A stretch of 61,542 nucleotides of DNA, filler included, from Dirinaria sp. TL-2023a (lineage: Eukaryota): the NCBI GenBank assembly GCA_051941275.1. It is 13 parts of 13 records of this genome, joined end to end, with 100 filler letters (N's around TTAATTAATTAA, not from the genome) between each part and the next. Parts side by side here need not be neighbours in the genome. Positions count along the whole stretch, not along the records: positions 28,516 to 33,154 come from JAVEBF010001807.1; 12 more parts are not named here. One strand, given 5' to 3'. Within the stretch, counting starts at the first letter, position 1; the number at the start of each line of letters is the position of its first letter. This document shows, piece by piece, positions 4,662-55,593 of this stretch. Below the pieces are notes generated by a model. The model had not been told where the DNA came from, did not search any database, and was given only the letters and a program-made list of their open reading frames with translations. A program made the position numbers and the translations under genes.

Positions 4662-4761
4662 NNNNNNNNNNNNNNNNNNNNNNNNNNNNNNNNNNNNNNN
4701 NNNNNTTAATTAATTAANNNNNNNNNNNNNNNNNNNNNNNNNNNNNNNNNNNNNNNNNNNN
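4662..4761. other. Artificial contig spacer N44-TTAATTAATTAA-N44. Also at 9419-9518, 14175-14274, 18928-19027, 23672-23771, 28416-28515, 33155-33254, 37893-37992, 42630-42729, 47363-47462, 52093-52192, 56821-56920
   Basis: Identical 100-nt spacer with stops in all six frames; flanking contigs decrease in length from 4661 to 4622 bp. Confidence 0.99.
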
Positions 4762-8258: not shown

Positions 8259-9518
8259 CCAGAGAACTCAGAAACATCCCGAAACTGCGAATAGTTCGGC
8301 ATATCATCGTCGAGCACGGTAAAGAGGAAGCCGAGGAGTCCTTAATCATCGTATGTCATCCTCTTGGCACTTATTATTTCATCTTTTCTGCCTACGCTTA
8401 GCATTCTGCCCCGCGATTTCACATTTATCAATTCTTTTCAGGACATTCATACTCCTCATTCACTTTTTCTGAACGGTGCAGCATGGTCCGAGGTTTATCA
8501 CGATCAGTTAATGCCGATCCTTTTTCTCAAATAGTTTTTTCAAATTCATAGTCGTTCAGATCGAGGTTGCTGATTTTCATATTGTCATATTTTGATGATT
8601 TGGAGGTGTTTATGAGGTGAATTGGGCCTATGTGTGCGTATTATTGGTGCTCAATTGCCGAAAATTCAAGAACTTTTGTGGTCAGTAGTACCCGGGGTCT
8701 GCTGACGAATTTACAGTCTAACCGCTTCCGTCAAACCATCTTGGCATTTGGTTAGTGGTGGTGAGGTTTTCTCAGTCTTACAAATATTGGGCGAAGTCTT
8801 TAAGAGACTTGTCTGCAGACATGGTTCTCTATTCCATGATCCACTCCAGAGTCGATGATAACCAGCATACATGTTCGCCTGACAAAATATCCGCCCGAAT
8901 CAAATTGATAACATGAATCAATATTGAACTCTTCTTGTATGCATGCAAAGTTGCCTTATTTCCCTAAAGCTCATACAGCCGCAAAGATAACAAATCAACC
9001 AATCACTGAAATATCATAGAACTCAACATATCCCCAAACCTATACAACAGACTAACAATAATCCCATCCCAAAAAAGTTCTCATTCTACACATCTTCCTC
9101 TCAGACGTCTCCTCCAACAACCATCCCCTCCCCTAAAACCCTCTTATCACCAACCCTCGAAATCACTCTACCATAATCCAGAAATATGCATCAAGCGCCC
9201 ACCATCACCATCCACGACGCTTTACCTATCCTACATGCGAGGTTCCACAACATATACATCCTTCCCTTGCTCAATGATCTCGGAGCCGAGGTTATCTATC
9301 TCACTTAGCCGCAACCTTTAATTTCATTCTTTTTTCTTTCTTTCAAAAAAGCTCACAAATGCAATAGCTACGGCTAGTTAAGACGCTCAAATGCATTGCT
9401 TTTTTTTTTTTTTTTTTTNNNNNNNNNNNNNNNNNNNNNNNNNNNNNNNNNNNNNNNNNNNNTTAATTAATTAANNNNNNNNNNNNNNNNNNNNNNNNNN
9501 NNNNNNNNNNNNNNNNNN

Positions 9519-27990: not shown

Positions 27991-29241
27991 AAACACACAC
28001 ATATATATATATATATACATATTCACATCCAAACTACCATGGTAGCGAAAGGCGGGTTTCGGATCCTTTTACCCCCCGTCTCTGTATCCACCGCGCCTGC
28101 AAAGCAAGCCTCTCTCTCCTCTTGTACAAAAAATATCAAAAGATAGCATAAAAAAAACCCCCCACAAAAAAATTCCTTCGAATCCAGCCCTAAGTATATA
28201 TTATGTAACTTCGCATCCCCCCCCTCTCTCGTTCTTTGATAGTCGGGTCTGAGGAAATGACAAGGCGACCCCCAGACCTTGCAGCAATTCGATTCTCGAT
28301 CCCTCGACTTACACACATATATCTCGTAGGAAGGAAGGAATTAGCAGCAGAGCATCTTCGGTTCTCTCCTACCTTTTTTATTATAGGTTCTATCGGTTGA
28401 CCGCCTCACCACTTTNNNNNNNNNNNNNNNNNNNNNNNNNNNNNNNNNNNNNNNNNNNNTTAATTAATTAANNNNNNNNNNNNNNNNNNNNNNNNNNNNN
28501 NNNNNNNNNNNNNNNTTAGAGACACCTCGAAAAAATGACTTATATAGAGCATTTTTAGAACTTAAAAATACGATACAACAGGCTTTCAAACCTTGGGCAA
28601 TAGTGGCAAGAACGTGGGCCTTTTGTACGAAATCTTAATTGTAGATCAAAAGTCTCGTCGAGGCATCCACGCGCTCCATATGAAAGAATCCTCTACTTCA
28701 CAAGCGAACGCCAGTACCGCAATTGACCCTACAACTGCTCAAAGTGATGATCAGGGTCATGCACCTTATCAGAATCGGCTATGCAGCGGAAACAAAGATC
28801 GAAGTCCTTGCAGTCGGCACACATGTAACGAGGACCCCAAACATCCTGCGAAACAATCTTTGGTTAGCTGGTTCCGAAAGGTTTAATACGACGGGAGTAC
28901 ACGTCACAGCTCTGCTGCCTCACAACTTACCATGTCACAAATACCACAGAAAGCCCTTTTGCGCTTTTCGCCCACAGCTTCCGCTGCACTGCTTGCACCA
29001 TTTCCAACGAACAACTGGGGTCTTAAATGGACGTTTCCGCAAAACATCGCAATCTGCACCGGCGTCCTTCCAGTTGCGTCGATTTTACTTTTGCTCGCCC
29101 CAGCCTTGAGCAGTTGCTTTACCACGGCAGCTGAGCCCGACTTTGCCGCCCAGTGTAAAGGGGTCCATTGCTGTGAATCTTCCATGTCGATTTGCGAGCC
29201 TGATCCAATTAACTTGCTGACGCATTCTGCAGATTCTGGGT

Positions 29242-29949
29242 TTGATTGATTGATTACTTCATTAGACACTCGGAGCCCGTCCTCAATCTGGACTAGCTAT
29301 GCGGCCATCAAAACAATCTATCTAAGGTATACACCTTAATCTCTCTGTATTTAATAACAATGTACTAATGAGTGGTTTCCTTCGGCACAATCGCCTCGAT
29401 CCTCTAACCGACGTCTCCTCTGCGACTTCAGAAGCCCGTTTCGGTACTCGTGGTTCATCCTGTGTAAATAAGTAAAGAAACAACCTCTAGAACTGAAGCT
29501 TTTCCTCGGCCTATTAACATCTTTGTATTCGTAATATCGAGGTCTCCATCTCTTAAATCGTAGTACTCGTGACGTGTTGAATATCGAGAAGAACTTGCTA
29601 CTAGTCTATAAAACATAGTACTGTAGCTGATGAAGAATGGCGAATCGAAGGGGATGTTCTCGGCAGTAACAGTATCGATGTCGCTGAAGGCGAAGTCGCG
29701 TGAAACAAGTCGAACTCTTTCTACCTTCTCTCTTGGCTTCGTGTCAACGTAAACGTCAATCACACAGAACAATCGACTTTGACGACGCGAATTTCGAGTT
29801 CAGACGCGTGTAGCAGACCAGATCACAGTTGTCATCACGAGGACACACTGCTCTCACTGTGCCCTCATCGTCAGGAGGATACTTGGCTCTATTGACATCG
29901 CAATAGGTTCGTAGCCGGCACCACGTACAGGTGATCCTCATCGCCGGCC
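29242..29949 (-). mobile_element. Non-autonomous non-LTR retroelement (SINE-like / internally deleted LINE), 708 bp
   Basis: 13-bp direct repeat GCAGATTCTGGGT at 29229-29241 and 29950-29962; 3' tail AA(TCAA)3 at 29255-29242; no intact RT ORF; interrupts an ankyrin repeat. Confidence 0.88.
29875..29949 (-). ncRNA. HDV-like self-cleaving ribozyme (predicted)
   Basis: GGCCGGC gau GAGGAUC ACC UGUACGU GGU GCCGGCU AC gaac CUAUUG cgaugu CAAUAG ag C caa G u AUCCUC: P1 with G1.U wobble, P2, P3, 7-nt L3, P1.1, P4, catalytic-position C at 29886. Confidence 0.85.
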
Positions 29950-32900
29950 GCAGATTCTGGGTAGGTAGAGGCGTGATGAATTGCAGTCATTCCTTGTTTA
30001 TCGCGCTTTGTTGACGAGCCTCGAAGGGATAGAAGCAAACCTACAGGGACACATTGGCCTTGTCTTGAAGCTGTGTGAAGGGATGTTCTCCCGGTCTGGT
30101 CTTCGCGATCGACATCAGCGCCGTGATTGATTAAAGTTTTCATCATGACTAGATTTTCGTTTTTACACGCTGCTTCCAGTGGTGTACCATAAAGCGGACT
30201 GCAAGCCTCACTGTCACTGCCAAAATTCAGCAGAATTTCAACAGCATTCAGATTATTAGCATAAGCCGCAACGTTGAGCGCAGTGCCTAGCTCGCCGGAA
30301 ATAGCGTTAACAGGTGCGCCCTGGGACACCAGGTATCTCAGGACGGATTCATTTCCATAGCAGGCAGCAATAAAGCAACTGTCACGCAGATCGTGCTCAC
30401 TACTGCTCGTCTTGCGCAGAATAAGATCCGCTGACGACGATAGACCCTGGGTTAAACTATGTATGAGAAGGACGTGTAAAAGGTAATTGCCCTGAACCGT
30501 ATTCTCGAAAGCGGCATCCACAAGGTCTTGGGTGACTTCGAGATCTGGCTGCCTTTTGAGTATTATCTCCAGGATTGATCGGTCGCAATACGGATTTTTC
30601 AACGCGGCTGCAGTCACGCTGTTCTCGATTTCTGTATCGGCAGGTAAATTGGCGAGTAGCAGTTTGAACATCGGCGTTCCCCGGTATTTGTTGGAGGCAG
30701 CTCGCTGTAACAGCTCGGTGTCGGCTCTCGCGCTGGTCCAATTGAGAAGAAAGTCAAGCAACGTAGTCAAAGCTTTTTCATTACTGGCTGCTGCCAGCAG
30801 AGCACCTCGGGTCACGACGGTATCCGGATGGCATGAGAGAAAATGCTGTAAAACAAATTTCCCATCTTCTCGCTTAGCTGCAGCTTCAACAAGAAGACTT
30901 TTGTTCATCTTCGGACCCCGATATTTTCCGAGTAGACGATCGAATTGAGTGGTGCTGAGCTCCGTGAGCTCCCACCGATCGCTATACCCTCCCTCCGACA
31001 CTTCTGATAAGATTGCGTCGAAAGTCAAATCTTCATCCCTCTCTACTTGAAGTGTACTTCCTTTAGCAAGATCGAACGTGAATGGGCTTGGGCCAGGAGC
31101 ACCGGGTTGTTCCAGCATCAGCTCAAACATTGATCGATCACCTGTCCGAGCAACTTCTTCGAGCACAAATCTCGAGATAGGGGAACTACTAAGTTGGGAA
31201 AGCAGGACCCGTAAGACAGCCATATTGGTGCCACGTACTCGGATCGCAGCAATCAGGTATTCCTCCTTAACTTCAAAATTGGGCTTCTCTTTTCTAAAAT
31301 GTTCCACAAATTCTATATTAGTCCCCTGAATAGCGGCAAGTAGCACATTGCCAGTCAACCCTGTCTCGACAGATTCACAAAATTGAAGGAGAAAGTCAAA
31401 AACCTGGGTGCCGTCCCACTCACAAGAAACGGAAGCTATCATCGATGCTTCTGTCACCGGTAAACTGGTCCAGTGGTTGGCAAGCACACGAACCAGCTCC
31501 AGCTTGTAAAAAACATTGGAGACGGGTTGAAGAAGGATATCTTCTGAAGGTCCAAGTTCGAAGCCAGCTTTGTGTCGTAACAACAGATCCAACTTGTCTG
31601 CTGCATCAAAACCACCCTTGAGAGACGCGCATACTACTTCTCTAGATATTGAGACTGCCCTAGGCGTGGAAATGACCGATTTCATTTCCGACAGAGAGCT
31701 CTTGGTGGCGCAGGCTTGTAAGAAGGCATCGGTAATACATAGAGACTCACCATGGCCTATACCTACCAGCAAAGCATATAGGTATCGCGATTGTTCTGCC
31801 GCAATATACAAGCTTTCTTCGAGTATTGAGGGACAATTGAGCCGAGGGAACAAGATATTGAGATTCTTTGCTGAAAGAGAGTTCGCTAGGACACTTTGGA
31901 GTACTTGCTGGCTGATCGTAGCAGTGTCAGAACGTTCGAGAAAGAATTTAAGTACAGCGAAAGCCAAGCTTTCGTTCGTGGCAGCTGCCATGAGCCAATC
32001 CTCCGTAGTATGATTAATTGAACAGTGTCCGGTGGGGAGGCCCAAGCTCGGAATAACTTCAGCTTCTATGTCGTACATCCTGGCCACGTTGCAAACCAAC
32101 TCTTCAGATATCTCACAACGTGAATCATGATTCAACAAAGCTTTCACGACTGCTTCTTTGTTGCTCTGCGAATAGCGGAAGGCCATTATGATGCTACTTT
32201 CAGAAACTCTGAGATTTTCACCTTTCGCGAGGATCATTTCCACTAGCTCTGGATTGATAGATGGATTTTGTACTGCCGCGTTCAACATACGCTCAGTGAA
32301 TTTTAGCGTATGGGATTTTGCCGTTATGACATCAAGTGTCTCAAACGAAGCACAATGTGAGAGAATATCAAGGTAGGTCTCTTCGTCAATCTCATTCGAA
32401 TCGTTTAAGAGACTTAGGACCATCTCTTTCCCAGATTTCGGGTCCTTTACTGCTTCGATGATTGTACTCTTGAACGGTATATCTTCAATGTGCTCTAGAG
32501 CAAATTTCCAAATGTCTAGATTGCGACTCCTTGCTGCTGCTGCTAACCACTCTTTGGCCCGTATAGAGGACCTAGGTTTCAGAGAAGCAGTGCGACAAAT
32601 CAACCTCATCGTGACAAGGTTTCCGTAAAACGTGGCAACCTCTAACGGCCTCGCACGCCCATCATTCTCCGCAAAAAGTGCCTTCTGCGTAGTCGCAGCA
32701 TCTACAAGTTCGTTAAGGCCATAGACACAAATCATGAACAACGGAAGTCCTGGACAACATCGACTATCGCGTCCCTCCTGCCAAATGTCTTCCTGTATGA
32801 ACAAATTTGATCTAAAGCAGTCAGAATTCCATCGGTCAAAAGCGTTGTTAGACTCTCGGTCTAAAAAAAAATCCTGCATTAGACCTCGAAGCCTCGGCTC

Positions 32901-34330
32901 TTGTCTTAGTCTGCCCGACTTCGAACAATGTCGGCCAAGGCAAATGCACGCATAGTTGCGAAAACCGTCGTGATCCAGGTACTTCCAATCGGACCTAAGG
33001 TAACTTGTTAAGCATGCCTCGGCAGCGACACCATGTGCGACTTCTCCACTAAAGTCGGGCCTCCTTTCAAAGAATTCTTTCACCGAGAGATGGGCGAAAG
33101 TGAAATACACATGATGAACTTCTACGGTCATCAAACCCCGTGTCATCCTAAGAANNNNNNNNNNNNNNNNNNNNNNNNNNNNNNNNNNNNNNNNNNNNTT
33201 AATTAATTAANNNNNNNNNNNNNNNNNNNNNNNNNNNNNNNNNNNNNNNNNNNNGCCTTGTAGCCTGTAGTAAGGTAAGAAGGCCCTGGTACGGAGTAGT
33301 CCTTGTACCGTACCTTAGTTCTCTTTCTTCGCAAAGATAGCGGAAGGACGCCCCGGTGTGTGGCGCCGCTTGTCACGGAATACGTCTGCCTAGCCCGGAT
33401 GTGGTAAGGTGTGGTATCAACGCTGCGACGACGGCTGCGACTCGCTGCATCGTCGGACGAGCATGGTTAAGGTCTCATCACTTTAAACTTACCTCACCTA
33501 CCTTACCTTACCTACCTCACTACTATCCTGATTGCCTCAAGAAGGTTTCCCTCGTATGGACCAGCTGCTCTGTTGAACCCGAGAATACCATCCCCCCCCA
33601 TGCACAAGAAAGAGGGTGTCGTGGGGACATTCTGATAGTCTCAACAAATGCCCTATCTCTTAGCTCCATTCCACCAATCCTATGCTTTCGAATAGCCACA
33701 CACCATCATCCGGCCCCCTCCCCCAATCGAACCTACCTTACTCCGTATCCTACCGACTACGTCTACTTACACGACTCACACTAAACCCAACAGCTTAAGG
33801 TAACGGTAGTCCCAGCTCCCACTATTATATCCCGGAGACCCCTCCTTTCCCTGCTTTCTGACCACAAGAACCTGGCCACCTCCATCGAAGATCATTCGTC
33901 GCCTGTCACAAGCTGCATACCTGTCGCCAAGCGATCTATGATCCGTGTGAGCATTACGACTCCCACCCGCCGTTGACGCCCTATTGGCCCTTCTAGTGCT
34001 TCTGAATTGCCCGAACGTTGATACTGATGCTTAGCATCTCCTAGTCCTCGAGCTACCCCACAGGACGATCATCTGCATGAAATTTTCCGCATTCCCGTTA
34101 CATTACCTCTGCATTCATCGCAGTCAAGCTCTGCCTATCATTCAGGCGCTAGTCGAGGACCTCCGCTCAGGCTTTGACGCCGCTGCAGATCAACGACATC
34201 TGGATCAACTCCTCGCTGCATGACTAAAGGACCTCTAGGGTGTGTCTATCGTGTCTATCGACCCTTGGAGCCATCAGAAGGTTTCGGATCGGCCATCTGC
34301 CGCCAACCTACAAACTTACGCTGCTGAGCC

Positions 34331-43780: not shown

Positions 43781-44150
43781 TGTGAAAGACGTGACAGTGT
43801 AATAGATTATATGACTATCTGATACTATAGTTTCTGCTAGAACTAATCACTAAGAATCTTTCTCGAAAGAGTGAGTGATTCTTTATACTTAATCGCGAGC
43901 GTTAACATTGTCTCATCGTGACGAGCCCCGCGCTGACGAATCACGAGCGCTCGTAGACACAATGCTCTATAAACGTCAATCGCTCACTGACTTCTAGTTA
44001 GTCTCGAAATTCAACCTTTCGACGCTGACTTCTAGACGACGCTAGCCATGCTTCAGACCTCGAAGGATTGCCTCTGGGCACCCTCGGCTGCCAAGCGGCG
44101 CTAGTCTGCATTGATCAATATATACCAATGTATCAGGTATCACTGTTACA
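43781..44150 (-). repeat. LTR copy A (370 bp, TG...CA), 5' LTR of a minus-strand element
   Basis: TGTGAAAGACGTG...CTAGTCTGCATTGATCAA...CTGTTACA, homologous at both ends to 44930-45318. Confidence 0.8.
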
Positions 44151-44929: not shown

Positions 44930-45318
44930 TGTGAAAGACGTGGTAGTGTAATAGATTGGCTTGCTATCTAGTACTATAGTTCTTGCTAGAACTAATCACT
45001 AAGAATCTCAAGAAAGAGTGAGTGGTCTGCTATACATAACTGCGACTTCTAACATCATTCCGCTATCATGTCTCATCATGATCATCTGATGCTAGATAAT
45101 AGAGAGTCAGCAGATATAGTATCTTACAAGCGCTGACTTTTCACTGACGCTTGTGTAGACTAAAAAGCTTGATCTTCGAAAGCTGACGATTCGAAAACGC
45201 ATGTATAATTTTTATACACATGACGTCTATTTATGACTATGATTCTTGATAATCGACGCTCAGTCGACGCTAGTCTGCATTGATCAACATATATCAATAT
45301 CAATATATCGCTGTTACA
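44930..45318 (-). repeat. LTR copy B (389 bp), diverged relative of LTR A
   Basis: Shares termini and the blocks GCTAGAACTAATCACTAAGAATCT and CTAGTCTGCATTGATCAA with LTR A; central part diverged. Confidence 0.8.
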
Positions 45319-52807: not shown

Positions 52808-55593
52808 TCATGTCGTTCCGAGCAAGTATAAAATAAGAAGTGCGGTGTAGATGCATATATAGGTACCAGCTATACGGTTACTTGCGCTGGAGCTCTGGGA
52901 GTCAGGCTTGGAAGATGCAGGAGCAATAGGAGATAAATCTGGTGCGTCTGCGATAATGCTTGTCTTGTCTGCTAAAGGCGCATAGCCGAATGTAGACACA
53001 ACGCTAGATTCTAGCCCTTCCGGATTCGCAGGTCTTGGATCCCCCTGAAGTGGGCCGGACGATGTGGTGGGGAGTGCATATGTGGTTCCTTGCACAACCA
53101 CAAACCCCTGCTCTAATGAGACCGAAGTACCTTCGACAACAGTTTGTTCTCCTTGCGTCAGAGTCACGCCGTCTAAGACGACGGCACCATTGCTTGCAAG
53201 TGAAACAGCAGGATCAGTAGGTAGAGGCAGTGCATATGTCTTCCCATCCACGATGAGACTATCCGAGACCAAGGATATCACAGTGCCAGATATTGTTGTC
53301 TGCGTACCTGGGACCAACTTATGACCATCGAAGACTACGGCACCGTTGCTTTCACGTGAGACAGCCGAGTCGGTAGGTAAAGGCAGCGCATACGTCTTGC
53401 CACCCACGATCAGTATGTTCCCACCTACTGATACCGCCGTGCCAGATATTGTCGTCTGGGCGCCTGCCATCAACCTGTGGCCATCAACAATCACCGCACC
53501 ATCACCGGCACGCGAGATTGTAGAATCAGTGGGCGTGGGAAATGCATACGTCTTTCCGGCGGCGACGACGATCCCCGAGCCCACGGTTATCGCATCTCCG
53601 GAGGCAGTCACTTGATAGCCGCTCGAGTAAGTTTTGCCATTGACGATTATGGCACCACTGCTGTCTGTAGATATTGTAGGACTCTCCGCCGAAGCGCTAG
53701 GATCAAGAAGAGCTTGAAGACTTTTCGCTGGCAAAATAGGAACGGTAAGAACTTCGCCATCATATGATATTTCTCGATAGCGTTGCGAGAGTGGGCTAGG
53801 TGGATCCGTGATTGAGGGTTTGCTGTAGGTCCTCGTACCTAGGACAAGATGACCTTTCGCAACGGAAACGTAAATGCCACCAATTGTTGCACTTTGGCCT
53901 TGTGGAATTGTTTGACTACCAATAATGATCGCGCCACTAGGACCGGCTTCTATTTCGTCTCCAGGTGTCCAAACAGCTGGCCTTTCGGCAATGGAGAGGT
54001 CGTCCCAAGGTAGCTTACCGCCTAGCGATGCCGCAGTGGATGGCATGGCATATGTGCTGCTATCAATGACGAGGCGATCTGTACCAACTGACACGCTGAT
54101 GCCGTCAATGGTAGTCTGGCTTCCGCTAGATACCACCTGATCACCCAAAATGACTTCACCCTTGTTCGTGACCTTCAGCCGATGTCCACGGATTATAGAG
54201 GGCGGCGGATCAAGCACCGCAGGGCTCCGTGGTTTAGCAATGCTAGAACCACCAATATAGACACTCTGGGCATCTGCGGAGACGCGTGTATTGGCAACGG
54301 TAATTGCAGGAGCACCAGGTTTCAAAATAGTACCTGCAACTGATACAGCGCCATCGGGCAGAACGTAGACTGGCTGATTTGCGGCAATTGCAACATTCAC
54401 TGGTGTCGCTTTAGGCTCTTTGGCACCTTTGCTGGGAGCACTGTCTGCTTGTGGATCTCCTAGCGACCAAGGATTTCCGCCCTGAATGCCTCCTGCTTGA
54501 GGAGGAATTCCTGGTGAGTGATTTCCAGGACGAGCAGGATGCGATGGTCCTGGCGCTGCCGTCTTTTTAACTGAAATAGCAGCGGGCACATCGGCTGGCA
54601 TCGTTGCCTTAGGCATTGGTGTCGCCACACTTGTATGATACATCGGGCCAAAACTTTCAATGCTTTGCGGCGCAGTAGGCGACTTAGGAGGAGCAAAATG
54701 CGACGAAGCATCCGAGGTATGGTGTGCTGGTGCCGGTGCTGGTGCTGGTGCCGGTTCCGGAGTTAAAGCGTGCACTGGCACCAGCGCCCTCGGCGGATCG
54801 TATGCTCCCCAATTGTACACATCGGCATCGCATTTTTTCCACTTGGGGTCGATGGTCTTGATGTCCGCTGGGTAGCTTACAATTGGGCTTGCAGCCATTT
54901 CTGTTCCATTGGGATCAACACCCCCGAGAGGACCCGTACCACCGTCTTCGCCGAATTGCCAGAAGCAACCTTGAGCAGCGATCCAATTCTGCGAAGGGTT
55001 CGATAGATCGTTTACATTGAGCGCTGCCCATGGGCGCCCATTTGCGCCGTGGTAGTCGCAGTCGCCAGGGACGGTCATGAGTGCTTTTGGAGGGTAGGCC
55101 TTTGTAATGTTGTAGTGTGCCGCCAGAGGTGTAGGGGGACCACGGAGCCAGTCCTCAATCACAGCAGAGACGGTGCTCCAGACGACATAGACAGAAGGCG
55201 AGGTGCTTGCAGCGTTGTCAGTGCAGTTTCTAGTAAGGTCAAAAACGGTCCAACGACGAACAACGTGTAATTACCCTCAACGGCTGTGACGATGTCTGGA
55301 GGTCGGGTAACATTGGTCGACGTTGTGGATTCAGGGAAGTAAAGCACTTGGACATTGCCAACGTCCAATATGCATTCACTATAGTCTATCGACGAGGTGG
55401 TATTGGTCCGAAGGGACGAAGTGGCGTTGAGTTGAAGCGACGACGTCTTGCTGATAGGCATACCGACACTGGCTGTCAAACGCGTGAGAGCACTGGTTGC
55501 GTTGGCCATTCTGGATCTCGTCGAGAACGGACGTGTGGCCGCTGCGGATATAACATAATAAAACAGCAATTGGACAAGGCTACAGAGATGCAT
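52808..55593 (-). CDS. Secreted, probably GPI-anchored Ser/Thr/Pro-rich cell-surface protein with ~50-aa tandem repeats (intron ~55262-55207)
   Basis: Signal peptide; FTSPSVYV, DPKWKKC, YDPPRAL; repeats GAVxVDGxxLxxGxQTTISGTxxSxGxxxLIVxGKTYALP; hydrophobic C-terminus after a Ser-rich omega region. Confidence 0.8.

What the first reader, a model, noticed from the sequence alone, without database searches (positions are those of the whole stretch)
29875..29949. HDV-like self-cleaving ribozyme whose predicted cleavage site is exactly the 5' end of a fungal retroelement insertion
Seen: the minus strand folds into the full nested double pseudoknot. P1 is GGCCGGC/GCCGGCU (7 bp, G1.U wobble). P2 is GAGGAU-C/G-u-AUCCUC. 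P3 is ACC/GGU. L3 is UGUACGU, with U and G at the HDV U20/G25 positions. P1.1 is GU/AC, a compensatory change from HDV's CC/GG. P4 is CUAUUG/CAAUAG. J4/2 is C-C-A-A, with the catalytic-position C at 29886. G1 (29949) abuts the target-site duplication. Established: HDV-like ribozymes define the 5' ends of R2, RTE and L1Tc non-LTR elements. Inference: a functional ribozyme that frees the element RNA from host read-through transcripts, with an unusual GU/AC P1.1.
Basis: partly seen in the sequence, partly recalled or inferred. Interest (0 to 1): 0.9.

Follow-up and report, generated by a model that had tools for sequence, protein, structure and literature searches.

The report
Self-cutting RNA heading a fungal retroelement
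A 75-base RNA fold of the hepatitis-delta self-cutting type starts at the very first base of a short mobile element that has jumped into a fungal gene, and over a hundred relatives keep the same fold, so it most likely trims the element's RNA free of host transcripts: a known trick, here tied to small fungal elements.

Summary
G1 is the first base of a 708-nt insertion (29242-29949) with a 13-bp target-site duplication and a (TCAA)3 tail. The insertion splits an ankyrin-repeat gene.

P1, P2 and P4 were left free by the pattern, and they stay paired through many compensatory changes. The 14 prokaryotic matches to the same pattern do not fold this way.

In 37 of 51 independent insertions an exact 11-16 nt duplication ends at the base before G1. 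All copies are short (0.7-1.2 kb) and have no ORF. Different element families share the ribozyme, and some also share a 3' module.

Best reading (0.85): an HDV-like self-cleaving ribozyme defines the 5' end of non-autonomous non-LTR retroelements. Cleavage itself was not tested.

This is not a new kind. HDV-like ribozymes head R2, RTE and L1Tc elements. Variant HDV ribozymes in 26 fungal species were shown to cleave in 2017, without any link to mobile elements. Verdict: new member of a known kind, moderate interest.

The parts
29875..29949 (-). HDV-like ribozyme, 75 nt; the predicted cut is 5' of G1 (between 29950 and 29949)
   Evidence: Pairings verified. It is the only strict-descriptor hit in the window. 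It scores 66.2 bits with covariance model R1. There is a sub-threshold Rfam RF02682 alignment that starts at G1.
29943..29949 (-). P1 5' strand GGCCGGC; partner 29913-29919 GCCGGCU; G1.U37 wobble
   Evidence: Among relatives, G.U at this pair in 95 of 98, and 4 of 7 P1 pairs change on both sides.
29933..29939 (-). P2 5' strand GAGGAUC; partner 29875-29882 G-u-AUCCUC
   Evidence: The five central P2 pairs are paired in at least 86 of 90 relatives, with 3-6 pair types each.
29920..29932 (-). P3 (ACC/GGU) enclosing L3 UGUACGU; G22 and U23 (29928-29927) form P1.1 with A38 and C39 (29912-29911)
   Evidence: These letters are invariant among relatives only because the search pattern fixed them. A second ribozyme family in the loci has UCCACGU with GG partners.
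29889..29906 (-). P4 hairpin CUAUUG-CGAUGU-CAAUAG
   Evidence: The basal 6 pairs are 96.5% paired among relatives, and 4 of them change on both sides. P4 length varies.
29883..29888 (-). J4/2 AG-CCAA; C64 (29886) lies at the position of the catalytic cytosine
   Evidence: AGAGCCAA was also kept in three variant contig ends that differ in P4 (table 7).
29242..29949 (-). 708-nt non-autonomous non-LTR-type element, with no ORF that matches a family
   Evidence: the 114-aa ORF has no Pfam match. Contigs of four runs run on into unlike sequence at 29242 and at 29949/29950 (table 7).
29242..29301 (-). 3' module ending in the tail AATCAATCAATCAA (29242-29255)
   Evidence: Local alignment to the 3' ends of family B elements scores 46 and 33, against shuffle maxima of 27-30 (0 of 300 shuffles reach it). 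There is no such likeness to family A.
29950..29962 (-). Target-site duplication, upstream copy ACCCAGAATCTGC
29229..29241 (-). Target-site duplication, downstream copy
28904..33154 (-). Host ankyrin-repeat gene split by the insertion; the element lies in sense orientation
   Evidence: Ank_2 scores E 2e-33 upstream and 5e-12 downstream of the insertion. The reading frame continues across the empty site.

Best explanation
The 75 nt are an HDV-like (nested double pseudoknot) self-cleaving ribozyme. It forms the first module of a family of short, promoter-less, non-autonomous non-LTR retroelements of ascomycete-type fungi. The element is transcribed as part of a longer host transcript; here it lies in sense inside an ankyrin-repeat gene. 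The ribozyme folds and cuts 5' of G1. The freed RNA, which starts at G1, is copied by target-primed reverse transcription from its simple-repeat 3' tail by a LINE-encoded enzyme supplied in trans. Full-length copies therefore begin exactly at G1, between target-site duplications. Shown here: the fold, its covariation, the element ends and duplications, and the modular sharing of the ribozyme. Inferred: cleavage, read-through transcription and the trans-acting LINE.
For: (1) All helices and core letters are present, and this is the only strict-descriptor hit in the window against 0 hits in 22 shuffles.

That is 123 matches, of which all but L037 and L062 carry a P1 5' strand at a fixed distance upstream.

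(3) In the helices the pattern left free, 98 distinct sequences show 96.2% of cells paired, against 34-47% with partners slid by 1-3 columns. The covariation score is 0.304 against 0.02-0.09, and 0 of 500 shuffles reach it. P1 pair 5-33 occurs as GC 72, CG 13, AU 6, UA 1. P1 pair 6-32 occurs as UA 71, GC 26, CG 1. P2 central pairs occur, for example, as CG 64 / AU 22 / GC 1 and UA 64 / GC 22 / CG 2.

(4) Negative control: the same pattern in 596 Gb of prokaryote genomes gave 14 matches. They score 8.6-18.7 bits with model R1, against 54-108 bits for the metagenome copies. None of the 14 passes a joint P1/P2/P4 test, against 90 of 123.

(5) Of 51 distinct insertions with enough flank, 37 have an exact 11-16 nt direct repeat whose upstream copy ends at the base before G1. 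Only 2 of 51 have a repeat that reaches one base into the element.

(6) The window element shares only nt 1-77 with the loci, plus a 3' module with family B. The ribozyme is therefore kept while the element bodies differ.

(7) Sub-threshold, end-to-end alignments to two Rfam HDV-like families start at G1: RF02682 at 14.7 bits for the window, and RF01787 at 23.8 bits for L090.

(8) Precedent: HDV-like ribozymes at the 5' ends of R2, L1Tc, baggins and RTE elements (passages of PMC6765202), and fungal HDV variants shown to cleave (passages of PMC5640933).
Against: No cleavage assay exists, and no mapping of RNA ends was possible. The runs available were contigs only, and table 6 lists no start or end places.

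No Rfam family reaches its gathering score.

The plain MFE fold is unremarkable, with z = -0.58; this is expected for a pseudoknot.

L3, P3, P1.1 and J4/2 are invariant among relatives only because the search pattern fixed them, so their conservation is not evidence.

Sequences fall into a few subfamilies, so cell counts overstate the number of independent events. C>T plus G>A changes outnumber the reverse 209 to 39 within the main family, and such RIP-like bias can create G-C to A-U double changes.

Subfamily A2 (13 distinct sequences) carries a fixed U.C mismatch at P1 pair 3-35 yet has spread.

One contig from an RNA library runs 27 nt across the cut site (table 7).

A 5' end fixed at G1 would also follow from an internal promoter that starts transcription there.

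Of the 51 insertions, 14 show no exact duplication.
Confidence: 0.85

Rival explanations
1. The conserved 5' fold is not catalytic. It is an internal promoter or a protein-binding or stabilising 5' module, and the RNA starts at G1 because transcription starts there. In L1Tc the first 77 nt are reported to be both promoter and ribozyme.
For: The fixed 5' end with the duplication abutting G1 is equally predicted by this reading. The dual promoter/ribozyme role of the L1Tc Pr77 is in print (listing and abstract start of PMC3383444). No cleavage data exist for this family.
Against: A DNA promoter does not need compensatory changes that keep four RNA helices of a double pseudoknot. The core letters sit where the HDV class has them. 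No tRNA-like part was found. The two roles do not exclude each other.
Confidence: 0.07
2. The family is or was a ribozyme, but this copy or the whole family is a dead relic. On this reading the fold is only inherited, not selected, and does nothing today.
For: Many copies carry RIP-like C>T and G>A changes. Copies such as L024, L044:10448 and L073:12852 are visibly degraded. No autonomous partner was seen.
Against: The window copy has no mismatch in any helix and has an exact 13-bp duplication, which suggests a recent insertion. The ribozyme stays about 89-92% identical between elements whose bodies no longer align. Pairing holds at 96% across subfamilies.
Confidence: 0.05
3. The sequence resembles an HDV fold by chance, or it is an integrated piece of a deltavirus-like or retrozyme-like circular RNA agent.
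For: Helices alone arise about 22 times per shuffled window. Circular RNA agents of fungi that carry ribozymes are in print (listing only).
Against: The strict descriptor hit 0 times in 22 shuffles. More than 100 relatives show covariation. There is one ribozyme per unit, together with target-site duplications and a simple-repeat tail, which are marks of target-primed reverse transcription and not of rolling-circle units.
Confidence: 0.02

Closest known systems
HDV-like ribozymes at the 5' ends of non-LTR retrotransposons (R2, baggins/RTE, L1Tc)
   Same: The ribozyme occupies the first nucleotides of the element, the cut defines the element's 5' end, and it frees promoter-less element RNA from a co-transcript (passages of PMC6765202, PMC3185411).
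   Different: Here the host is a fungus and the elements are 0.7-1.2 kb without any ORF. Insertion is not site-specific, and P1.1 is G-C/U-A. The primary papers (Webb 2009, Ruminski 2011, Webb and Luptak 2011) are not held, so I could not check whether they list fungal cases attached to elements.
Non-autonomous derivatives that keep a LINE's 5' ribozyme: NARTc and SIDER of trypanosomatids, R2 SIDEs of Drosophila
   Same: These are short elements made of the 5' ribozyme module plus a 3' end used for reverse transcription (listing and abstract starts of PMC3414825, PMC3383444 and PMC4035085, passages). Here the ribozyme and a 3' module are shared while the middle differs.
   Different: The partner LINE is unknown here. 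The taxon differs, and the tails are (TCAA)n, (TCAAA)n or (TAC)n.
Variant HDV ribozymes of fungi (Li and Breaker 2017, PMC5640933): 230 examples in 26 species, cleavage shown for P. chrysogenum and A. niger
   Same: They are fungal, of the HDV class, multi-copy and with 'widely variable gene associations'. They have an extra nucleotide, mostly C, between P2 and P3; here C17 is at least 90% conserved.
   Different: Their type has a C-G pair at the cleavage site and an E-loop in P4. Here the pair is G.U in 95 of 98, and the base of P4 looks canonical apart from a C.A mismatch. Their text does not contain the word starts 'retrotranspos', 'transpos' or 'repeat'. Their alignments (.sto files) could not be read here, so overlap with this family is untested.
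Rfam RF02682 (HDV ribozyme of F. prausnitzii) and RF01787 (drz-agam-1)
   Same: Alignments start at G1 and cover P1, P3 and L3 (RF02682), or all 82 model positions (RF01787, for relative L090).
   Different: Scores are 14.7 and 23.8 bits against gathering scores of 44 and 37, so this is not a member by Rfam's own threshold.

Membership tests
HDV-like self-cleaving ribozyme class | P1 of about 7 bp beginning at the cleavage site, with G1 in a wobble or pair | tested here: met
   GGCCGGC/GCCGGCU with G1.U37. Among relatives 95.6% of cells are paired, and 4 of 7 pairs change on both sides.
HDV-like self-cleaving ribozyme class | P2 pseudoknotted with P1 (5' strand inside the P1 loop, 3' strand at the 3' end) | tested here: met
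   The five central pairs are paired in at least 86 of 90 sequences, with 3-6 pair types each.
HDV-like self-cleaving ribozyme class | A 3-bp P3 closing an L3 of 7-8 nt that begins with U and holds C-G at positions 5-6 (motif recalled, not from a call) | tested here: met
   ACC/GGU with UGUACGU. Conservation among relatives is uninformative because the pattern fixed these letters.
HDV-like self-cleaving ribozyme class | P1.1: one or two pairs between L3 and the nucleotides after P1 | tested here: met
   G22-C39 and U23-A38. A second family in the loci has CC/GG in the same frame. The degraded copy L044:10448 has A-U/U-A.
HDV-like self-cleaving ribozyme class | Catalytic cytosine in J4/2, followed by purines, before the P2 3' strand | tested here: met
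   C64-C65-A66-A67. AGAGCCAA is kept in three P4-variant contig ends.
HDV-like self-cleaving ribozyme class | Site-specific self-cleavage giving 2',3'-cyclic phosphate and 5'-OH ends | not testable with these tools
   Needs a bench assay.
HDV-like self-cleaving ribozyme class | Match to a curated Rfam HDV-like model at its gathering score | tested here: not met
   The best scores are 14.7 bits for RF02682 (window) and 23.8 bits for RF01787 (relative L090). These models are narrow and cannot model the pseudoknot.
5' ribozyme of a non-LTR retroelement | Ribozyme position 1 is the first base of the integrated element | tested here: met
   Shown for the window copy, and in 37 of 51 insertions by exact duplications that end before G1.
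5' ribozyme of a non-LTR retroelement | Marks of target-primed reverse transcription: target-site duplication and an A-rich or simple-repeat 3' tail | tested here: met
5' ribozyme of a non-LTR retroelement | A reverse transcriptase and endonuclease encoded by the element or by an identified partner | tested here: not met
   No RT-like ORF lies downstream of any copy. No RT family was found in the 11 window ORFs scanned: the 10 of at least 280 aa, one trimmed at a spacer, plus the 114-aa ORF inside the element. The whole genome is not held. The elements are therefore filed as non-autonomous.
Fungal HDV variants of Li and Breaker 2017 | C-G pair at the cleavage site | tested here: not met
   G.U in 95 of 98, if 'at the cleavage site' means the first P1 pair. 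The figure could not be seen.
Fungal HDV variants of Li and Breaker 2017 | P4 partly replaced by an E-loop | tested here: inconclusive
   The conserved stretches ACGAACCU and AGAGCCAA flank P4, but I see no clear E-loop. Their consensus figure and alignments are not readable here.
Fungal HDV variants of Li and Breaker 2017 | Extra nucleotide, mostly C, between P2 and P3 | tested here: inconclusive
   C17 is at least 90% conserved. In 63 of 90 sequences it pairs as the last P2 pair. In 25 of 90 it does not pair in register and can pair only across a one-base bulge.

The most novel reading that the evidence does not exclude
Ascomycete (including lichen-associated) genomes hold a large, so far undescribed group of ribozyme-headed, ORF-less retroelements. 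These are minimal cassettes made of an HDV-like ribozyme at the 5' end and a LINE-recognition module at the 3' end, around freely changing filler. This would be the missing biological role of at least part of the 'orphan' fungal HDV ribozymes reported in 2017 with 'widely variable gene associations'. The ribozyme fold may be kept for more than cutting: for example, to protect or mark the uncapped 5'-OH RNA for the LINE machinery.
Probability: 0.45. Interest if true: 0.65.

Novelty: new member of a known kind. Interest (0 to 1): 0.5.

Why it matters
It gives a concrete, testable role to HDV-type ribozymes in fungi: they define the 5' ends of small parasitic retroelements that ride on host transcripts. 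It also supplies a covariance model and about 100 natural variants for biochemical work. Such elements can now be recognised in fungal genome annotation, where here one interrupts an ankyrin-repeat gene. The mechanism itself is established in animals and trypanosomes, so the gain is in breadth, not in principle.

Tried and rejected
- Rfam at gathering thresholds and at E up to 10 over 2 kb found no HDV family. Only when the search was narrowed to 106 nt did a weak RF02682 match appear.
- The plain MFE fold is not better than shuffles. The nested parts alone give -18.4 kcal/mol (P1+P3+P4) and -10.7 kcal/mol (P2+P3+P4).
- A whole-genome search is not possible because no genome is held. There is only one copy in the window.
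- Sequencing runs held only small shares (at most 0.07) and only as contigs. Neither transcription nor RNA 5' ends could be read. The stretches beside the element had no cover in the four runs, which I do not count as evidence.
- I looked for a coding partner. ORFs of at least 200 aa downstream of the copies are ordinary host-like proteins, not RT. There is no excess of 3' ends over 5' ends among the loci.
- Realignment with covariance model R1 did not put the distal P2 strand in register. I therefore counted P2 on a second MAFFT alignment that starts 8 nt before P3.
- The tRNA scan found none.
- A likeness of GGCUACGAACC to a pol III B box was judged by eye only (about 6 of 10 letters) and dropped.
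- Earlier findings of this scan held nothing relevant.
- The protein atlas call failed twice because the machine was busy, and I dropped it.
- Papers not held: Webb 2009, Webb and Luptak 2011, Ruminski 2011.
- Literature searches for a fungal link between HDV-like ribozymes and retroelements were. They found only an unpublished 'laboratory data' remark on P. chrysogenum and Li and Breaker 2017.

Full report
**What is at the site**

The window is not one stretch of a chromosome. It is 13 pieces of about 4.6 kb, joined by spacers of N44-TTAATTAATTAA-N44. The finding lies in the piece 28516-33154.

On the minus strand of that piece a long open frame with ankyrin repeats runs from the piece's edge down to about 29950 (Pfam Ank_2, E 2e-33). 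It resumes in frame at 29240 with another ankyrin repeat (E 5e-12). Between these two parts lie 708 nt (29242-29949) that match no protein family.

The 708 nt are flanked by an exact 13-bp direct repeat, ACCCAGAATCTGC, at 29950-29962 and 29229-29241. On the minus strand they end in AATCAATCAATCAA. This is the anatomy of a non-LTR-type retro-insertion, in sense orientation inside a host gene.

**The fold**

- P1 is 1-7/31-37, with the G1.U37 wobble.
- P2 is 11-16/70-75, plus C17-G68 across a bulged U69.
- P3 is 18-20/28-30.
- L3 is UGUACGU.
- P1.1 is G22-C39 and U23-A38.
- P4 is 44-49/56-61.
- J4/2 is AG-CCAA, with C64 at 29886.

A plain energy fold cannot show a pseudoknot and is unremarkable, with z = -0.58. 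The nested parts P1+P3+P4 alone evaluate to -18.4 kcal/mol.

I wrote a descriptor after seeing the candidate, so it is post hoc. Its strict form hits the window once, at this site, and hit 0 times in 22 dinucleotide shuffles. With the sequence motifs removed, chance gives 0.14-0.45 hits per window. With helices alone, chance gives about 22 per window. The helices alone prove nothing; the rest of the argument rests on position and on relatives.

Rfam 15 gives no match at any gathering score. In a 106-nt search, RF02682 (HDV ribozyme of F. prausnitzii) aligns from G1 through P1, P3 and L3 at 14.7 bits (gathering score 44). A relative, L090, aligns end to end with RF01787 (drz-agam-1) at 23.8 bits (gathering score 37). 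These are leads only.

**Relatives**

No whole genome is held, and the window has a single copy.

Contigs of four public runs were laid on the region. One run is an RNA library labelled lichen metagenome, which does not prove transcription. The contigs hold relatives 80-99% alike. They run on into unlike, mutually different sequence at 29242 and at 29949/29950; in run X6, six contigs do so at 29949. Some contigs depart from the window in P4 yet return to AGAGCCAA. One change, A58 to G, turns U47-A58 into a wobble.

I then scanned metagenome contigs with CCTGTACGTGG-N8-AC-N{12,42}-GAGCCAA. This fixes part of P3, L3, P1.1 and J4/2, but leaves P1, J1/2, P2 and P4 free. These hold 123 matches. All but two (L037 and L062, the same chance-like sequence) have a strand complementary to the P1 3' strand, 17-24 nt upstream in all but one (L080, 28 nt). 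Similarity between copies begins exactly at that strand's first G.

**Covariation**

I dropped two of the 100 distinct sequences: L053, cut off by its contig end, and L037, which is chance-like. On the remaining 98, including the window, the structure has 96.2% of cells paired. With the 3' partners slid by 1-3 columns the figure is 34-47%. The covariation score is 0.304 against 0.02-0.09, and 0 of 500 column shuffles reach it.
- P1 pair 5-33 occurs as GC 72, CG 13, AU 6, UA 1.
- P1 pair 6-32 occurs as UA 71, GC 26, CG 1.
- The basal six pairs of P4 show up to six pair types.

MAFFT and a covariance-model realignment both left the distal P2 strand out of register. I therefore counted P2 on a second alignment of 90 distinct sequences that starts 8 nt before P3. 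There the five central P2 pairs are paired in at least 86 of 90, with 3-6 pair types each, for example CG 64 / AU 22 / GC 1.

Four limits apply:
- P3, L3, P1.1 and J4/2 are invariant by design of the search.
- The sequences fall into a few subfamilies, so cells are not independent events.
- Within the main family C>T plus G>A changes outnumber the reverse 209 to 39, a RIP-like bias that favours G-C to A-U double changes.
- Subfamily A2 has a fixed U.C mismatch in P1.

**Negative control**

The same pattern in 596 Gb of prokaryote genomes gave 14 matches. With model R1, which was built from the 98 sequences (so their own scores are circular), these 14 score 8.6-18.7 bits. The metagenome copies score 54-108 bits and the window copy 66.2 bits. 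The model also picked up two degraded copies that the pattern had missed. None of the 14 passes a joint test of P1 at least 6 of 7, P2 at least 5 of 6, and P4 4 of 4. Of the 123 metagenome matches, 90 pass.

**The elements**

Similarity among copies of the largest family (A) starts at G1 and ends about 1010 nt later in a (TAC)n tail. Family B is about 1150 nt long with (TCAAA)n or (TCAA)n tails.

Of 51 distinct insertions with at least 20 nt upstream and 1500 nt downstream (66 others were incomplete), 37 have an exact 11-16 nt direct repeat whose upstream copy ends at the base before G1. Only 2 of 51 have a repeat that extends one base into the element. G1 is therefore the first copied base in most independent insertions.

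No copy is followed by a reverse-transcriptase-like ORF. The long ORFs nearby are ordinary host-type proteins. No tRNA-like part is present.

The window element shares only nt 1-77 with the loci, at 89-92% identity to L040, L098, L105 and L108. Its last 60 or so nt align with the 3' ends of family B: scores 46 and 33 against shuffle maxima of 27-30, with 0 of 300 shuffles reaching them, though part of the score comes from the tail repeat. They do not align with family A.

These are therefore non-autonomous elements built from a 5' ribozyme, a variable body and a 3' module. NARTc and SIDER elements and R2 SIDEs are built in this way from their LINEs.

**Mechanism and rivals**

The best reading has four steps:
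1. Read-through transcription from the host gene.
2. Self-cleavage 5' of G1.
3. Reverse transcription primed at the target, using a LINE enzyme supplied in trans.
4. As a result, full-length copies that begin at G1.

Only cleavage, read-through and the partner are inferred.

The main rival is an internal promoter or a non-catalytic 5' module, which also predicts the fixed 5' end. It does not explain compensatory changes that keep a double pseudoknot, and in L1Tc both roles coexist. A dead-relic reading is weakened by two facts: the window copy has no mismatch in any helix, and its duplication is exact.

**What is known**

Passages of a 2019 review (PMC6765202) state that HDV-like ribozymes head R2, L1Tc, baggins and RTE elements, and that some LINEs and SINEs of metazoans use hammerhead or HDV-like ribozymes.

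Li and Breaker 2017 (PMC5640933; passages, supplement look-ups) report 230 variant HDV ribozymes in 26 fungal species, on top of 11 consensus-type fungal examples found earlier. They show cleavage for P. chrysogenum and A. niger. They note 'widely variable gene associations', but their text never mentions transposons or repeats. Their variant has a C-G pair at the cleavage site, an E-loop in P4 and an extra C between P2 and P3. The present family has G.U at the site, a P4 base that looks canonical, and a conserved C17. Their alignment files cannot be read here, so overlap is untested.

The L1Tc paper (PMC3185411, one passage) mentions unpublished 'laboratory data' of an HDV-compatible fold in a P. 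chrysogenum sequence.

Seven searches found no paper that ties fungal HDV-like ribozymes to retroelement 5' ends. The library lacks Webb 2009, Webb and Luptak 2011 and Ruminski 2011, which might do so.

**The organism**

A fungal origin is inferred, not shown. Another piece of the window encodes an Argonaute whose best solved relative is QDE-2, at E 1.4e-100 against about 1e-64 for plant and animal Argonautes. That QDE-2 is the Neurospora protein is recalled, not from a call. The mutation bias is RIP-like. Relatives occur in a run labelled lichen metagenome.

**Verdict**

It is a new member of a known kind: an HDV-like ribozyme that defines the 5' end of small non-autonomous retroelements, here in fungi. 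Interest is moderate, at 0.5.

Noticed in passing
window 4662-4761, 9419-9518, 14175-14274 and so on, every ~4.7 kb: The window is a chain of 13 separate pieces of about 4.6 kb joined by N44-TTAATTAATTAA-N44 spacers. Neighbouring pieces need not be adjacent in the genome.
   Followed up: yes
L069:38-122 (-) and L024:5057-5145 (+): A second, different HDV-like ribozyme family occurs in the same metagenome contigs. Its L3 is UCCACGU (UCUACGU in the degraded copy), P1.1 is the canonical CC/GG, P1 is GCCCGCG/CGCGGGU and P2 is CUGCAC/GUGCAG. Both copies lie at contig edges, so what follows them is unknown. It may be closer to the published fungal variant.
   Followed up: partly
L004, L017, L018, L050, L051, L057, L060, L063, L070, L075, L089, L095, L120 (subfamily A2): A subfamily with P1 GGUCCUC/GAGGCCU keeps a U.C mismatch at P1 pair 3-35 in all 13 distinct members. 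Relative to family A it also has a flipped pair 5-33. It has still multiplied, so either the mismatch is tolerated or P1 pairs in another register.
   Followed up: no
L044:10448-10535 (+): A degraded copy found only by the covariance model has L3 UAUAUGU followed by AU after P1. P1.1 has therefore gone from G-C/U-A to A-U/U-A by two transitions. The C of the L3 C-G is also lost, so this may be decay rather than selection.
   Followed up: no
loci L001-L121, family A copies: Differences from the family consensus are strongly biased: C>T plus G>A number 209, T>C plus A>G number 39. Flanks are AT-rich (TATATA-like). This looks like repeat-induced point mutation.
   Followed up: partly
window 19030-22091 (+): An Argonaute gene in two open frames, probably separated by an intron, carries ArgoN, ArgoL1 and Piwi domains. 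Its best solved relative is QDE-2, at E 1.4e-100.
   Followed up: partly
window 29824-29873 (-): The 50 nt just downstream of the ribozyme also occur inside a 5298-nt contig of the RNA-library run X1, at contig positions 4718-4767, with unlike sequence on both sides. Other contigs carry the element body up to 29873 joined to a family-B-like ribozyme 3' end. Modules seem to be exchanged between elements (tables 7 and 8).
   Followed up: no
window 43781-43908 and 44930-45055: There are two direct copies of a stretch of about 125 nt (86% and 73% alike in two blocks), 1149 nt apart. They could be terminal repeats of a small element.
   Followed up: no
window 53169-53480: A tandem duplication of a 156-nt unit (74% alike) lies inside the 820-aa open frame 52808-55270. 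That frame has only a weak and probably spurious Pfam match.
   Followed up: no
family A ribozymes, J1/2 (for example L019:1417-1504): Family A has a J1/2 five nt longer than the window's. Part of it (CCG-UCGAAAU-CGG) can form a hairpin that overlaps P1. GACG after P2 can pair with CGUC of P1. This is a possible alternative fold that would compete with the ribozyme (judged by eye).
   Followed up: no
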